From assembly GCA_001938485.1 (NCBI GenBank), contig MQRK01231771.1, forward strand, positions 3,158 to 54,134: DNA of 50,977 nucleotides, written 5' to 3'. Every line of letters starts with the position of its first letter. Position 1 is the first letter of the stretch. The position numbers are program-made. The stretch is from Girardia tigrina. Taxonomy: Eukaryota. Below are positions 13,949 to 19,900 of this stretch, one piece after another.

Positions 13949-16900
13949 CTTTGAACAATTAAATTATATACTTAAGTAATTAAACTCTAAAGAAATAAAA
14001 AATTAATCAAATCACAGATCGTCCACGAACAATAATTAACAAAACAAATAGATAAAGAACCCGGAATTGTCGAGAGTAAAAACCACGATAACTTGATCGA
14101 TTGTTAGAAGGATAAATTGCAATAAATAGATCGATTGTTAACAGGACTAATCGCTTATATTTTTTGATAAAATTTATATTAAAAATATCACCTAACGTAT
14201 TTTAGGTATCTAAACAATATTTTTTTCCTAAAATAATTACACTAGAGTTTTGCTATTTTTTTTTAAAGAAAAACTTTCAATTCGGAAGTGTTTTCATGTA
14301 TCAAATTTATATAATTTTAACTCTATTAAAATGCAACCATTTTTGAATAATATAATTTTTAAAAACTTGATTTCTCTTTTCTTTTCCACTTTACTTTCTT
14401 CCTCATTTATTAATCAACAAAACATGCTGACTTTAGGCTTTAGGAAATATTGTCTTGTTAATAATTAATTTATTTTTTATTACATGAATTTCAAATCTAT
14501 CTTTTGTAAATTAAGGGTAATGCGTAATTAAAGGTAACGTTGTGTTATAGTCTTAAATAAAAGATTAATAAGATTGTTTATAAAATATTTATTAACAAAA
14601 AAACAATGTTTAAAGAGTAATAATTAATAATTTCTATTTTTTAAATCATTTTTAATAATTATCATAAATGATAATATAACATCCTCCTTAGGAAATCATT
14701 AATATTTTGATACTGGATTCCTAGTGCTTTTAATCGGGTATCTCATTTTCCTGATAATTGAATCTTTCTCATTTACTTGATTCATAATCTATTGGTGCGT
14801 TTAACTCCCCGTTGTATTTTTATAACTGATTATAATTTCTTCTCATTACTTTCTGCGATGTTTCATCTTGAAGAATATTGATGATGCCTAATACATAACG
14901 ATGACCATCTTTAGTACAACGAAAGGACCACAAATATCTATTTCAATCATTTGAAATGGTTGGTTTACGAAAAATCTCTGAAGAGGGACTTTATCACAAC
15001 CGTTTTTCCCTTCATTCTCGAACATGCTTCACATTTTGTAACGTAATTCCTTATATCTGTTGTCATGTCTGAACAATAAAATTCAATTTTCATTTATAAC
15101 TTTTGTAATATTATAGATAATATAAATTGATTATTTATTTTAGTAAAAATACAAATATTAATATATTACTAACTGTAAAAATAAGGAATCTGATTAAATA
15201 ACTGACAAGCAATAGTTTCGATATCTTTACAAATAAAAATACGACTGAATGACAAACAAACCAAGCTGACCAAAAAAGAGTTTTTGATGAGCTTAGTTGT
15301 TGAAAAAAATAACGCAAATAATAATAAAATAATATTCAGTAAAATTAGAATCAGGATTTTAACTAATAACAGTTTAATTGGATAACAATTACTTACAAAC
15401 TCGTATGATTATACACAAAATGGATAGCAAAAACAGAGATAGGCAATTCAATGTTCGATCAAGAGTTTAATCAACGGATTAGTTAACGAAATCGCAAAAA
15501 AAATGTCTGTCGGAAATCTTGCCGTCAGGAAATACAGAATAATATTTATTTCTATAGTGATTGCAATTTGAAATTTGATTCAAATTGCAATTATCATGAT
15601 AATTAAATTATTATTACAATATAATTATCACGACAATATAATTAAATTATCATGACAATAAAAATTTGGACGATTGTCATACAATTCATATAGATGGCTT
15701 GAATTAATATAATTAATAATAATTAATATAAGAAAATGTTTCATTCTTTTCTTTATCTATCCTTCTTTATCTTCTTCTTTGTTTCCATCACTTGACAAAC
15801 AAATTTGCGTAAAGATAAAAGTAAAAATATGAATAAAAAATAACATTTAAATAAATTACCACATCACATGTTGTCAGAGTATGTACAACTCACGTATACG
15901 CACGTAAAAAGACAAAAAAAGAAAAAAATATATAAATAAAATAAACTGTTAACAACGAAATTGAGAGGTTATTACACAAAACGTTTGCTAAAATGAAGTA
16001 TCACACTAACTATAACAACCTCGTGTTATATTATCACTAAACATAAAAGCACAAATGAAAATAACTATTTCACAATACACAGGTAAAAAATAAAAACATT
16101 TTGATAAATATTTATTTTTCTTTTATTTAATTTTTCAATATTTAAAACTCATTTTTTTAATTTTAATTTTTGTTTTAAATAATTCTGTTATTATTATCTA
16201 CCTGCAATTGTAAGTAGTTGAATTATTATAATTATTAATATATTTATTAATATATATTGCAGATATTAATATATAATTTTTATTTAATTATCTACTTACA
16301 ATTTTAAGTAGATTATCAAGCTTGAGGCTTAAACAAACAAACAAACATTTGGTAAATATATAAGTTTATGGACATGTATAATAAGTTTAAATGAATTTCT
16401 ATAAATAATGATAAAATCATAAAAAATATAATGTTATTAAAAAGATAATTAAGTCATATATGATTATAAAAGTAATTTGGAGCAAAAAACATACCTGGTG
16501 TACGGAGAGCTAATGAGGAGCGAATGGCTGTTGTCCTGTTGGAGGTTTCTATTTGTTGCGGTTGTTGATTTTGGAGTAAATTGAGGTCAATCTGAAGAAC
16601 GATAGTTGTTGACTGATTAGGTTCAACGAAAAAATTACCATAGTCTCAGACATCTGCTCATTATTCGCACGTCGGATTTCAAATGCTGTGTTCGGATTAT
16701 CAAGCTTCATTCTGATTTGCACCTGAAGTAGTGCGTAAGCCAGTTTCGGGTTATCAATTAGGTATTGGCGAGCTTCACACGGATGGTTCTCAATATATTG
16801 TTTCATTTGTGGGATCAAGTCACACAGTTTTTCCTGTGTCATTCTCGCAACTGTCTGTCCAACTACCGACCCAGCTTGTTGTGTGTTGCATTTCTCTTCA

Positions 16901-19900
16901 TAGATATTTCGAAACTCCGTGCTGTTCTTGTCCCGATTGGAAGAAATGATCTTTAACGGCTGGTCGTTGTAGGCCAATGTAATTGTAGCGACTGTATCAC
17001 TGTTATTTTGACTATCGATATCAGTATCAACCTAAATGTAAACATTGAAAGTGCAATTGCTTTAAGTACAATAATTAATTTCGTTTCAGAAAATTAAGAA
17101 GATACAATATATATGATAGTGTATTTACTAATTGAAAATTTTGAAATTCATTGCTCTTAATACCTGAATGTTTCTATTGAAAAACTAAAGTTTGTTGATA
17201 AAATAGAGTGGAATCTTTTATCTTAGTGATGATAATTAAACATTGTGTCTAATAGCATCCTTTTAATCTGCATTCATTTTTGAGGGAAAAATGATTATTT
17301 TTTATTTAGAATTCATTTTCAATAACAACTTTGGGGATAAATTTCGTTGTATTTAAGGAATTTCGGTTTTTCAATGCACAAATTATTTAAAGAAGTGTAA
17401 CGAAATACGCTTATTGAGAATGACAATATAACTTTTAATATTTTTATTAATAATCCAACCAAAGGATCAAGGCGTTACATTCAATTTTCAGGTTTATTAT
17501 TTGTGGCGAACATTTAGGTAGATGTTTGAAAAACAGACGGAGAAAAGAAGCAATCAATAAAAGAATTTTGGAAAAAGCACATTATCATAAATGCTGTAAA
17601 ACGCAAAAACCTTTCTTGGAGTGAAAATTAATTAATAAATTATCGGAAAATTGACATATAACCTAAACCTAATAGACCTAAGAAATTGACCTATAAAAAA
17701 GTCCTGCCCTTTAAAATTGACCAATAAATTTGAAATTTACCTAAAAAATTGACGCATATAACAACAATTCACTTTAAATTAAAAATAGACCATTAAATAC
17801 ACAAGTAAACTAAATAGTTAAAAAACATTACCATTGAAAATCGTTTATTAAACAAAAAAGTAATTTTTAACATTTTTAACGTCAAAATTGAGGTCTTTTG
17901 AGAAAAGTTTTTTTTTTAATCTAGAAAAACTTCTCTCAACAGAAGTGTTTGAGCATGGGGCTTTAATTAAAAACGCATGAGTTTCAGGCGACATTTTTCG
18001 ATTTGGCTCTTCCAAAAACGAAAAAATATCATTTTTATACAATTACTTGATAATGTATTGCTTGATTTCAGCTGGGCCTTCTTCAATTTTTTGATTGCAA
18101 GTCACATTTGTGAATATAGAAGTTTGTGTTTTCGCTTTCGTTCAATAAACGAATAATGCAAACGTATTCTCGAATGATTTTTTTCAAAAGTGCCATTCAA
18201 ATAGAGGATATCAAAAAATCAAGGTCTTCGAATTTTAAATACATACATCAGTTGTGCAGTAGGTGGAGGCTTAACTAAAATTATTTCTTTTAACGATTGC
18301 ACTTTTCGCTGAATACTTTTTAATCAAAGATTTATTTATTCGGGTTTTAACACAATTGTCTAAAGTTGTTGGTTTTCTTCAAAAAAATAAAAAAGATCAA
18401 AATTGTTGGAACTTCGATAAACCACTTTCGATATTTATCGAACATTTAAACACTTGGATAAACATTAAAAAAGATTTATTTCTTCGATTCAGTAGTTCAT
18501 AATAAAGTTCTACTTTAAAATTTCGTCCAAATTTCAGTATTTTTAGAATGAACGATTCCGTGAATACTCCACTAAACACATAAAAGCATCTTTGGATGTT
18601 AGCCTGCCTTATCAATAATCTGTAGTGATATATTCGGAGGGTATCACTGCTTTTCGTACTTTAGATTATTTAATCTTTTTTTAATCTTTACTGATCAAGT
18701 GTTGAAAAACCGCACTTATATTGGGCCATAGGAGTAATAGGTTGCAGCTAGTGCATTGGTTAAATTTGTTTTCTTCAGGCGAACTATGTTGGATTTTCAA
18801 TTACTGTAAATAACAGAATTTATAAATTATCTAGGATCTTAAATTTGAAAATCACTTTAGAATATCTCGTTAAAATTTTGGGACATTGCACACATGATTA
18901 TTTTTTTATTTAAGAGACATAAATTGGGTCGATTTAAAACTATAGTTATAATTTAAGTTTAGTTTAATAAGTTTAGAAATTTTTACCGAATATGTTTACA
19001 TAATCTTTAACTTTAAATTAATTGAAAAAAGCTAATCAGAGTACAGTATTTACTCTCTCAACCGCCATTTTCTCTCAGTCGCCATTTTTTCTTAACCTCA
19101 TGAATCAGGGGATACAAAATTGACTTTTTCAGATTTAAAATGGGATAATTTTTAGAAAGTGTTTAATTTAGAAAAATACATACTTTTAAATATCAATTAT
19201 TGTTTAAATATCAGATAAATATCAATTATTGGCGAATTTAAAAATCAAGGAAATTCACAAAATTGACCATAAATAACATATCCAAAATGTGTCAGACTTA
19301 CAATCAGTGAAAAAATCGAAATTATACGGTATTGTAACACAAATCCACACGTAACAGACAATCAAATTGCGCCCATGTTTGAGCATAAATTTAAAAAACA
19401 AGTTTCTCGATGGATGATCAATGATTTAAGGAAGAAAGAAAGACGATTTATTAAAAAAATGTGAATTTAGAATCAAAGGATAAATATCGCAATCCTATAT
19501 TAAAATATGGAAAAATAGACGAGGAATTATCTGATTATTGATTCTGCGGGTGGAATAATTAATGACAGCATATTAATAAACAAAGCTTTATCTATCACAA
19601 AGACTCAAAATATCATGGACTTCGAAGGATCAGTTGGATGGCTGCTAAAATTCAAAGCAAGACATGAAATTAAGTTGATGAAGTTACATGGAGAATCTTT
19701 TACAACAGCACTTCCAAATAATGAAGATTTTTTAAATGTTTTAAATTCGTTCTTATGGTCCGGATAATGTATACAATGCCGATGAAACTGGTATTTTTTA
19801 TAAACTCAATCTTTCCAAAATTTTGTGTAAAAATGTGAGAAGCGGGTATAAAATATTGAAATATAGAATATCTGTTCTTTTGTGTACAAATATGACGGGA

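What the first reader, a model, noticed from the sequence alone, without database searches (positions are those of the whole stretch)
16495..17031. Nested antisense CstF-64 hinge gene that appears to have lost its RRM
Seen: a minus-strand frame open from an acceptor at 17031 through a recognisable CSTF2 hinge, then a Q/P-containing linker ending at a canonical donor at 16495. Only an RRM-tail-like segment (YNDQPLKI, cf. FSGRALRV) precedes the hinge; the RNP1 motif KGYGFCEY is absent. A possible upstream donor at about 17163 would give ...TFR|LI, echoing the conserved SFR-LV junction, but out of frame with the hinge. No CSTF C-terminal domain exon was found. Established: the hinge binds CstF-77 and symplekin. 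Inference: either a decaying duplicate, or an RNA-binding-deficient paralog that could modulate 3'-end processing, hidden in a housekeeping gene's intron.
Basis: partly seen in the sequence, partly recalled or inferred. Interest (0 to 1): 0.68.

Follow-up and report, generated by a model that had tools for sequence, protein, structure and literature searches.

The report
Lone CstF-64 hinge exon pair
An intact but isolated piece of a gene for an mRNA 3'-end processing factor, carrying only its protein-docking "hinge" and not its RNA-binding part, sits backwards inside a large transposon-filled intron of a metabolic gene; whether it is a leftover copy or a working decoy protein cannot be settled from this sequence alone.

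Summary
The hinge is real. The minus-strand piece 17031..16639 hits Pfam CSTF2_hinge at E=3.1e-15, 56.8 bits against a cutoff of 27.

The frame is not open to 16495 as the finding says. It stops at 16551..16549. The Q/P tail lies in another frame and is reached only through a plausible 47-nt GT..AG intron, 16638..16592.

No RRM_1 and no CSTF_C hit appeared in any of the 147 long open segments or 412 short minus-strand segments scanned across the 51-kb window. There is no in-frame ATG before the hinge, and no convincing upstream or downstream exon.

The two exons form a sharp 42-44% GC island in 17-25% GC flanks. The 160-codon open frame never stayed open in 20000 shuffles.

The host is a plus-strand carboxyl-transferase gene, and its roughly 38-kb gap between exons is full of transposon debris.

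My best reading is an orphan, still-intact partial copy of a CstF-64-family gene (0.5). The main rival is an expressed RRM-less paralog that acts as a CstF-77/symplekin decoy (0.33).

The parent gene, dN/dS, copy number and expression could not be checked with the tools open here.

The parts
16639..17031 (-). Putative exon A (131 codons, phase 0 at both ends): N/S/D/T-rich 48 residues followed by the hinge. No in-frame ATG before residue 64.
   Evidence: GC is 42% against 25% in the upstream flank.
16684..16887 (-). CSTF2_hinge domain match (residues 49-116 of exon A)
   Evidence: Pfam PF14327, E=3.1e-15, 56.8 bits, cutoff 27, profile 9-77/81; repeated at 56.3 bits. Atlas nearest cluster carries PF14327, score 0.88-0.89. 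The single-sequence AF2 model has five helices at pLDDT 62. Foldseek rank 1 of 40 is 2l9b_A, the Rna15 hinge, but at E=2.0, which is not significant.
17032..17033 (-). Acceptor AG before exon A. Together with 17034 it forms an in-frame TAG, so the frame cannot extend further upstream.
   Evidence: Read; frame.
16592..16638 (-). Putative 47-nt intron: GTAATT donor, a CTAAT-type branch site, and a pyrimidine-rich tract before the AG
   Evidence: Read. It is the only one of the 20 frame-keeping GT..AG combinations with such signals, and it gives the longest exon B. Not a multiple of 3. GC 34%.
16549..16551 (-). In-frame TAG that ends the hinge frame if the 47-nt stretch is not spliced out
16495..16591 (-). 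Putative exon B (32 codons plus 1 base): the Q/P-containing tail, with no family match
   Evidence: frame; 0 Pfam families. GC is 44% against 17% in the downstream flank. Open in 5072 of 20000 shuffles.
16493..16494 (-). Donor GT (CAG|GTATGT) after exon B
   Evidence: Read.
4056..4571 (+). Host gene: carboxyl-transferase exon (open segment 4056-4640; donor read after 4571), very GC-rich
   Evidence: PF01039 Carboxyl_trans, E=3.1e-17, profile 2-105. Donor read. GC 66% over 4260-4640.
43058..43236 (+). Host gene: next recognised carboxyl-transferase exon
   Evidence: PF01039, E=1.6e-16, profile 133-193. Splice sites read.
14968..15093 (-). Neighbour: short broken piece of a retroelement integrase (zinc-binding module only), about 1.4 kb downstream of exon B on the same strand. 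Virus-like; described only.
   Evidence: PF17921 Integrase_H2C2, E=3e-6, 27.7 bits, cutoff 25.5. No RT, RNase H, protease or integrase-core hit among the 150 neighbouring minus-strand segments of that call.
13167..13749 (+). Neighbour: truncated, broken reverse-transcriptase piece. Virus-like; described only.
   Evidence: PF00078 RVT_1, E=4e-4, 20.6 bits, below the cutoff of 29.6.
19273..20528 (+). Neighbour: broken pogo/Tc5-type DNA transposon copy
   Evidence: CENP-B_N, HTH_Tnp_Tc5 and DDE_1 hits spread over 5 open segments.
21255..22275 (-). Neighbour: broken pogo/Tc5-type DNA transposon copy, upstream on the same strand as the hinge
   Evidence: HTH_Tnp_Tc5 and DDE_1 hits spread over 3 open segments.

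Best explanation
This is an orphan, still-intact partial copy of a CstF-64-family gene. It consists of two exons with their small intron: the hinge exon and the linker exon that follows it. It was copied at the DNA level, by segmental or transposon-mediated duplication, into the transposon-rich gap between two exons of a carboxyl-transferase gene, in antisense orientation.

Shown:
- The hinge domain.
- The open frame.
- The splice-signal anatomy.
- The absence of RRM, C-terminal domain and start codon in the window.

Inferred:
- It is not an autonomous gene. It has no in-frame ATG before the hinge and no recognisable partner exons, so it could make protein only if some unrecognised upstream exon supplied a start.
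- Antisense orientation lets a passenger with strong splice sites persist without being spliced into the host mRNA.
- If the piece were translated, the hinge would dock on the CstF-77 monkeytail or on symplekin without bringing an RNA-binding domain.
For: - The hinge match is significant.
- An in-frame TAG overlaps the acceptor, so the frame cannot start upstream. The first Met is residue 64, inside the hinge match.
- No RRM_1 or CSTF_C was found in 147 open segments of >=58 aa on both strands (E<=0.01).
- None was found in 412 shorter minus-strand segments: 150, 146, 64, 52.
- Short domain pieces are detectable this way: a 42-aa integrase piece scored E=3e-6.
None of the 19 ATG-started phase-0 pieces within 2.2 kb upstream is convincing.
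- The GC island 16451-17050 is isolated. The nearest islands are transposon or retroelement pieces.
- The retained 47-nt GT..AG interruption argues for a DNA-level copy rather than a processed one.
- The setting is dense with mobile-element debris.
Against: - The piece shows no decay. The 160 codons are open (0 of 20000 shuffles), all five splice signals are intact, and GC3 is 0.44 while the flanks are 17-25% GC.
- Its hinge score of 56.8 bits looks modest for a family that a paper describes as highly conserved among insects (PMC11595156, passage in section 3.1). I could not calibrate this against a canonical hinge. A divergent yet unbroken frame is what a constrained coding sequence would look like.
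- A short novel 5' exon and low-complexity 3' exons would escape Pfam.
- No flanking terminal or long terminal repeats mark a transposon carrier.
- There is no second copy in the window.
Confidence: 0.5

Rival explanations
1. These are two exons of a real, expressed, divergent CstF-64 paralog without an RRM, nested antisense in the host gene. Its other exons are short or novel and invisible to family models. The protein would bind the CstF-77 monkeytail or symplekin through the hinge. Having no RNA-binding domain, it would compete with canonical CstF-64 and so modulate poly(A)-site choice or histone 3'-end processing.
For: - Intact 160-codon frame (0 of 20000 shuffles open).
- Intact acceptor, 47-nt intron and donor.
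- Exon-sharp GC island and GC3 of 0.44 in AT-rich flanks.
- A modest rather than maximal hinge score, suggesting divergence without breakage.
- Five predicted helices, as described for the CstF-64 hinge (PMC3016980, passage in the section on interaction sites).
- RRM-less relatives exist. The nearest Atlas clusters are hinge-only proteins of 95 and 116 aa with 75 and 54 members.
- Arabidopsis ESP1 is described as a CstF64 homolog lacking the RNA-binding motif (PMC3355569, Discussion passage).
Against: - No start codon before the hinge.
- No partner exon recognised in 51 kb.
- Exon B being open is weak evidence (5072 of 20000 shuffles).
- The splice model is one of 20 arithmetic options.
- Atlas scores are below 0.9, so they are leads only.
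- No expression or conservation data could be consulted.
Confidence: 0.33
2. It is part of the organism's ordinary CstF-64 gene. Its RRM and C-terminal exons lie outside the window, in exons shorter than the scanned minimum, or in the N runs.
For: - Seven N runs totalling 953 bases. Four of them lie upstream of the hinge on the minus strand; I left them alone.
- Minus-strand segments under 24 aa (and under 28 aa outside 11175-25445) were not scanned.
- Introns in this region can be very long: the host's exon gap is about 38 kb.
Against: [quoted passage not shown] Exons of that kind should score strongly.
- None of the 559 scanned segments (147 + 412) gave RRM_1 or CSTF_C.
- The 48 residues before the hinge show no RRM trace even at E<=10.
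- The hinge score looks modest for a canonical gene. This rests on recall and was not calibrated here.
Confidence: 0.08
3. It is a processed (retrotransposed) pseudogene of CstF-64 mRNA.
For: Reverse-transcriptase-bearing elements are present nearby.
Against: - The hinge and the tail are separated by a 47-nt frame-breaking stretch with intron signals.
- The piece begins at an AG acceptor and ends at a consensus donor rather than running colinear with an mRNA.
- In a processed copy the RRM should lie directly upstream, and it does not.
- No A-rich tail is seen after 16495.
Confidence: 0.04
4. It is a chance open frame with a spurious domain match.
For: None beyond the AT-rich, repeat-rich setting.
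Against: - E=3.1e-15 at twice the curated cutoff.
- 0 of 20000 shuffles open.
- All ten best Atlas hits that carry a Pfam family share a family or clan with the best hit, the CSTF2_hinge cluster.
- The plus-strand frames over the same bases have no family hit.
Confidence: 0.01

Closest known systems
Canonical CstF-64 / CSTF2 (yeast Rna15), the RNA-binding subunit of cleavage stimulation factor
   Same: It carries the family's hinge domain (PF14327). The hinge is the module that papers describe as binding the CstF-77 monkeytail and symplekin in a mutually exclusive way, and as needed for nuclear localisation (PMC3016980 and PMC6294498, passages). Five helices are predicted, as those papers describe.
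   Different: There is no RRM and no C-terminal domain anywhere in the window. There is no start codon before the hinge. The tail after the hinge is only weakly Q/P-rich (5 Q and 2 P of 32). No sequence-level hit to any PDB chain was found at E<=10.
Arabidopsis ESP1/RSR1 (At1g73840) and other hinge-only 'CstF64-like' proteins
   Same: They share the architecture idea of a CstF-64-type hinge without the RNA-binding motif (PMC3355569, Discussion passage, citing Herr et al. 2006, which I did not read). The nearest Atlas clusters are hinge-only proteins of 95 and 116 aa, with plant records the commonest.
   Different: Those are complete, expressed plant genes with mutant phenotypes. Here no complete open frame is shown, the window does not look plant-like (pogo, mariner and hAT debris; see the report), and orthology was not tested. 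Atlas scores of 0.88-0.89 are leads only.
Partial gene duplicates / gene fragments lodged in transposon-rich introns
   Same: It is an isolated exon pair with its own intron, lacks the start and end of the gene, sits among broken mobile elements, and is antisense to the host.
   Different: No carrier element ends were found. There is no second copy in the window. No decay is visible.
Mammalian CSTF2T (tau CstF-64), the known animal paralog
   Same: It is a second CstF-64-family locus in an animal genome (PMC3287031 and PMC5094787, passage and abstract listing).
   Different: tauCstF-64 is described as a full paralog with the same RNA-binding specificity (PMC3884657, abstract listing). The piece here has no RRM.

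Membership tests
CstF-64 / CSTF2 family | Hinge domain (PF14327) | tested here: met
   E=3.1e-15, 56.8 bits against cutoff 27, profile 9-77 of 81.
CstF-64 / CSTF2 family | N-terminal RRM with RNP motifs | tested here: not met
   No RRM_1 in exon A at E<=1, in its first 48 residues at E<=10, or in 147 long and 412 short minus-strand open segments. Limits: segments under 24-28 aa, segments with more than 30% X, and the N runs were not covered.
CstF-64 / CSTF2 family | Conserved C-terminal domain (PF14304 CSTF_C) | tested here: not met
   No hit in the same scans.
CstF-64 / CSTF2 family | Five-helix hinge fold | tested here: inconclusive
   The single-sequence AF2 model of residues 45-131 has five helices but a mean pLDDT of 62. 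The best Foldseek PDB match is the Rna15 hinge 2l9b_A, but at E=2.0, probability 0.41, TM 0.43. The 131-aa model (pLDDT 51.9) gave nothing.
CstF-64 / CSTF2 family | Binding to the CstF-77 monkeytail / symplekin | not testable with these tools
   No partner sequence from this organism and no complex prediction were available.
RRM-less hinge proteins (ESP1-type) | Hinge present with RRM absent in the same gene product | tested here: inconclusive
   Hinge present and RRM absent from the window. The gene product itself is not defined.
RRM-less hinge proteins (ESP1-type) | Complete open reading frame with start and stop | tested here: not met
   An in-frame TAG overlaps the acceptor. The first Met is residue 64, inside the hinge match. 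No convincing 5' exon. No 3' exon recognised.
RRM-less hinge proteins (ESP1-type) | Expression and conservation under selection | not testable with these tools
Processed pseudogene | Intronless colinearity with the mRNA, poly(A) remnant | tested here: not met
   A 47-nt frame-breaking stretch with intron signals lies between hinge and tail. No A-rich tract follows 16495.
Transposon-captured gene fragment | Carrier ends (terminal inverted or long terminal repeats) flanking the fragment; many copies | tested here: not met
   No such pair in 13500-19500 or, at >=40 nt, in 6000-27000. No second copy in the window. Genome-wide copy number is not testable here.

The most novel reading that the evidence does not exclude
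An animal genome encodes an expressed CstF-64 paralog that has kept only the hinge. It would be a natural decoy that occupies the CstF-77 monkeytail or symplekin without binding RNA, tuning poly(A)-site choice or histone 3'-end processing. That would make it an animal counterpart of plant ESP1. It would be transcribed antisense from inside a metabolic gene's intron, so its expression could be coupled to that of its host.
Probability: 0.3. Interest if true: 0.65.

Novelty: new member of a known kind. Interest (0 to 1): 0.4.

Why it matters
If the piece is only a stranded partial copy, it is ordinary. It would then mainly warn that intact-looking domain exons in transposon-rich introns need transcript evidence before being called genes.

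If it is expressed, it would be a naturally occurring RNA-binding-deficient competitor for the CstF-77/symplekin docking site in an animal. Papers show that this site is shared in a mutually exclusive way between cleavage/polyadenylation and histone 3'-end processing (PMC3016980, abstract and passages). Such a protein would be a ready-made handle on how CstF stoichiometry sets poly(A)-site choice.

In the five answered literature searches I found no paper describing an RRM-less CstF-64 hinge paralog in an animal. Those searches cover only the held open-access library.

Tried and rejected
- **PDB sequence search** with exon A (E<=1) and with the hinge alone (E<=10): 0 hits, so no residue-level comparison with a solved hinge was possible.
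- **Structure.** The single-sequence AF2 model of exon A had pLDDT 51.9. Its Foldseek search had 0 of 125 matches at E<=0.001 and none related. The hinge-only model (pLDDT 62) put the Rna15 hinge first, but not significantly.
- **hAT remnant.** By eye, 17851-18042(-) looked like a hAT transposase C-terminus that might mark a carrier. Pfam gives only E=0.091, 13 bits. BLASTP against the window's clear hAT piece gives nothing (E=14). Dropped.
- **Carrier repeats** around the hinge: none.
- **Second copy** in the window: none. The next tblastn hits have E>=0.58, and blastn finds only the region itself.
real but incompatible.
- **Fusion with the pogo-like copy** upstream on the same strand (21255-22275): rejected. 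That copy is itself broken and lies 4.2 kb away with no joining signal.
- **Literature.** 'CSTF2_hinge' found 0 papers. 'CstF-64 + gene duplication + insect + hinge' found 0 papers. Hockert et al. 2010 (PMC2804217) is not held.
- **Collections not used.** The bacterial/archaeal genome collection and the phage, plasmid and E. coli collections cannot hold a eukaryotic parent gene.

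
Full report
**Scope and limits**

The window is 50977 bases at 20-34% GC in 2-kb steps. It has seven N runs totalling 953 bases, which I only located and left alone.

I do not take the window for human. It is far more AT-rich, its putative intron is 47 nt, and its mobile-element debris is of pogo/Tc5, Mos1-mariner and hAT types. 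I did not try to name the organism.

The genome collection holds only bacteria and archaea. As a result these stayed unchecked:
- the parent CstF-64 gene of this genome
- copy number
- dN/dS
- orthologs
- expression

The step of searching or folding the joined exons was left out. Paper supplements were closed, so Supplemental Figure S2 of PMC3016980 (helix prediction) and the alignment figures of PMC11595156 were not seen.

**Observation**

On the minus strand an AG at 17033-17032 precedes an open frame that starts at 17031. Together with 17034 that AG forms an in-frame TAG, so the frame cannot reach further upstream.

The frame runs 160 codons and stops at a TAG at 16551..16549. It therefore does not run to 16495 as the finding says.

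The Q/P-containing tail is 32 codons (5 Q, 2 P) and ends at a CAG|GTATGT donor after 16495. It lies in another frame. The two frames join only if 16638..16592 is removed. That stretch is 47 nt and has a GTAATT donor, a CTAAT-type branch site and a pyrimidine-rich acceptor.

Frame arithmetic on 6 GT donors gave 20 GT..AG combinations of 35-150 nt that keep a frame open to 16495. Only the 47-nt one has these signals, and it gives the longest second exon. The intron is therefore plausible but not proven. The openness of exon B adds little, because 5072 of 20000 shuffles are also open.

**What it is**

Exon A (17031..16639, 131 codons) matches Pfam CSTF2_hinge at E=3.1e-15, 56.8 bits against a cutoff of 27. 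The match covers residues 49-116 and profile positions 9-77 of 81. The only other listed family is far below its cutoff. Exon B matches nothing.

Supporting evidence for the family assignment:
- The protein atlas puts exon A, and its residues 45-131 alone, nearest to a cluster of 95-aa hinge-only proteins. Scores are 0.88 and 0.89, with 179 and 195 of 256 shared features. All ten best hits that carry a Pfam family share a family or clan with that best hit. Scores below 0.9 are leads only.
- A single-sequence structure model of residues 45-131 has five helices at mean pLDDT 62. That matches the five helices described for the CstF-64 hinge (PMC3016980, passage in the section on interaction sites).
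- Its best Foldseek match in the PDB, rank 1 of 40, is the Rna15 hinge in 2l9b_A. At E=2.0 and TM 0.43 that is not significant.
- Sequence searches of the PDB found nothing at E<=1 or E<=10.

The frame is not a chance one:
- It is the second longest of 7407 X-free open segments in the window.
- No shuffle of its 480 nt out of 20000 stays open.
- The plus-strand frames over the same bases have no family hit.

**What is missing**

No RRM_1 and no CSTF_C hit appeared in any scan:

| Segments scanned | Threshold |
|---|---|
| 147 open segments of >=58 aa, both strands, whole window | E<=0.01 |
| 150 minus-strand segments of 24-57 aa, 11175-25445 | E<=0.1 |
| 146 minus-strand segments of 28-57 aa, 25696-43257 and 8943-11067 | E<=0.1 |
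| 64 minus-strand segments, 43727-50806 | E<=0.1 |
| 52 minus-strand segments, 3-8902 | E<=0.05 |
| first 48 residues of exon A and three upstream segments | E<=10 |

Not covered: segments shorter than these limits, segments with more than 30% X (dropped before the lists were made, not counted), and the N runs.

The method does see short pieces. A 42-aa integrase piece scored E=3e-6, and a 77-aa host segment scored 1.6e-16.

The first in-frame Met of exon A is residue 64, which lies 15 residues into the hinge match. A protein with the whole hinge therefore needs an upstream coding exon. Of 19 ATG-started phase-0 pieces in the 2.2 kb upstream, none has a convincing donor and length.

The low-confidence 131-aa model does place two strands there.

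**Surroundings**

The host is a plus-strand carboxyl-transferase gene. One exon ends at 4571 (PF01039 profile 2-105) and the next recognised exon is 43058-43236 (profile 133-193). Profile positions 106-132 are unaccounted for, so a small host exon may lie between them. In that case the 'intron' would be two introns.

The gap holds:
- three broken pogo/Tc5-type copies
- a Mos1-type HTH piece
- a hAT dimerisation piece
- a weak, truncated reverse-transcriptase piece
- on the hinge's strand, 1.4 kb downstream, a short integrase zinc-module piece

The last two are the virus-like stretches, and I describe them only. The reverse-transcriptase gene is truncated and split over two frames, so it has at least one frameshift. 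The integrase gene is reduced to one short module that ends in a stop, and no other retroelement domain was found on that strand among the 150 segments. These break counts are lower bounds, because I made no alignment across the breaks.

The pogo-type copies have hits spread over 5 and 3 open segments, so they carry at least 4 and 2 breaks.

The hinge exons form a sharp GC island at 16451-17050. Exon A is 42% GC, exon B 44% and the 47-nt stretch 34%, against 25% upstream and 17% downstream. No terminal or long terminal repeat pair flanks them, and the window holds no second copy.

**How it most likely works**

Papers establish that the CstF-64 hinge binds the proline-rich monkeytail of CstF-77 and, in a mutually exclusive way, symplekin. 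They also establish that nuclear localisation depends on CstF-77 (PMC3016980 abstract and passages; PMC6294498 abstract and passages).

A hinge without an RRM would dock there without bringing RNA binding. It would compete with canonical CstF-64. This step is inference.

Whether the piece is ever translated is the open point. I weigh the two main readings about evenly and rank the relic slightly ahead.

For the orphan partial copy (0.5):
- no start codon, no partner exons, no other family domain in 51 kb
- an isolated island among mobile-element debris
- a retained intron, which points to a DNA-level copy
- antisense orientation, which would spare the host from exonising its strong splice sites (inference)

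For the expressed RRM-less paralog (0.33):
- Nothing is broken.
- GC3 is 0.44 in very AT-rich flanks.
- The hinge score looks modest for a domain that a paper calls highly conserved across insects (PMC11595156, section 3.1 passage). Divergence without breakage suggests constraint.

That last argument rests partly on my recollection of how strongly canonical hinges score, which I could not calibrate here.

The remaining readings:
- the ordinary CstF-64 gene with its other exons out of sight: 0.08
- a processed pseudogene: 0.04
- chance: 0.01

**Comparison with what is known**

The piece carries the defining hinge of the CstF-64/Rna15 family but fails two of its defining features, the RRM and the C-terminal domain. 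I therefore do not file it as a CstF-64 gene.

In architecture it resembles the RRM-less 'CstF64-like' proteins known from plants. ESP1/RSR1 is described as a CstF64 homolog lacking the RNA-binding motif (PMC3355569, Discussion passage; the original Herr et al. 2006 was not read). It also resembles the hinge-only atlas clusters. A complete open frame, expression and orthology were either not met or not testable.

A survey paper states that all species it examined had the RRM in CSTF2 (PMC3287031, passage). In the five answered searches of the held library I found no report of an animal RRM-less hinge paralog.

**Verdict**

- The feature is real.
- Its status as a gene is unproven.
- I rate it a new member of a known kind, with interest 0.4.

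Noticed in passing
window 4056-4710: The host carboxyl-transferase exon is 66% GC (4260-4640) in surroundings of about 20% GC. As a by-product, long open frames overlap it in several frames on both strands; none of them has a family hit.
   Followed up: partly
window 4572-43057: Carboxyl_trans profile positions 106-132 are missing between the two recognised host exons. A small host exon may lie somewhere in the gap, so the hinge may sit in one of two introns rather than in a single 38-kb one. No further host exon was seen downstream of 43236 within the window.
   Followed up: partly
window 5181-5815 and six shorter runs: There are seven N runs totalling 953 bases, the longest just downstream of the host's first recognised exon. 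They were located only and left alone.
   Followed up: no
window 19273-20528 (+), 21255-22275 (-), 7943-8233 (-): Three pogo/Tc5-type DNA transposon copies (CENP-B_N, HTH_Tnp_Tc5, DDE_1), all broken. The first two have hits spread over 5 and 3 open segments.
   Followed up: partly
window 13167-13749 (+) and 14968-15093 (-): Two unrelated retroelement remnants lie on opposite strands: a truncated reverse-transcriptase piece below the Pfam cutoff, and an integrase zinc-module piece just above it. Both are broken and were described only.
   Followed up: partly
window 30579-30788 (-) and 32707-33039 (-): A Mos1-mariner HTH piece (HTH_48, E=2.1e-10) and a hAT dimerisation piece (E=1.5e-9).
   Followed up: no
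window 25288-25626 (-): A 113-codon open segment at 39% GC with a helical, charged look, on the same strand as the hinge and 8.3 kb upstream. It has no Pfam family (best E=0.088). Whether it is coding is unknown.
   Followed up: partly
window 30968-31612 (-) and 39186-39566 (+): GC-rich open segments (local GC up to 55-56%) with no Pfam hit. The first adjoins a TA-type microsatellite and N runs.
   Followed up: no
window 6000-6560: A block of degenerate AT-rich direct repeats, with families of 7-12 copies at 60-83% identity.
   Followed up: no
window 16193-16316: A 39-nt inverted repeat (74% complementary, 46 nt apart) about 180 nt downstream of exon B's donor. It is small and AT-rich, and possibly due to chance.
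   Followed up: no
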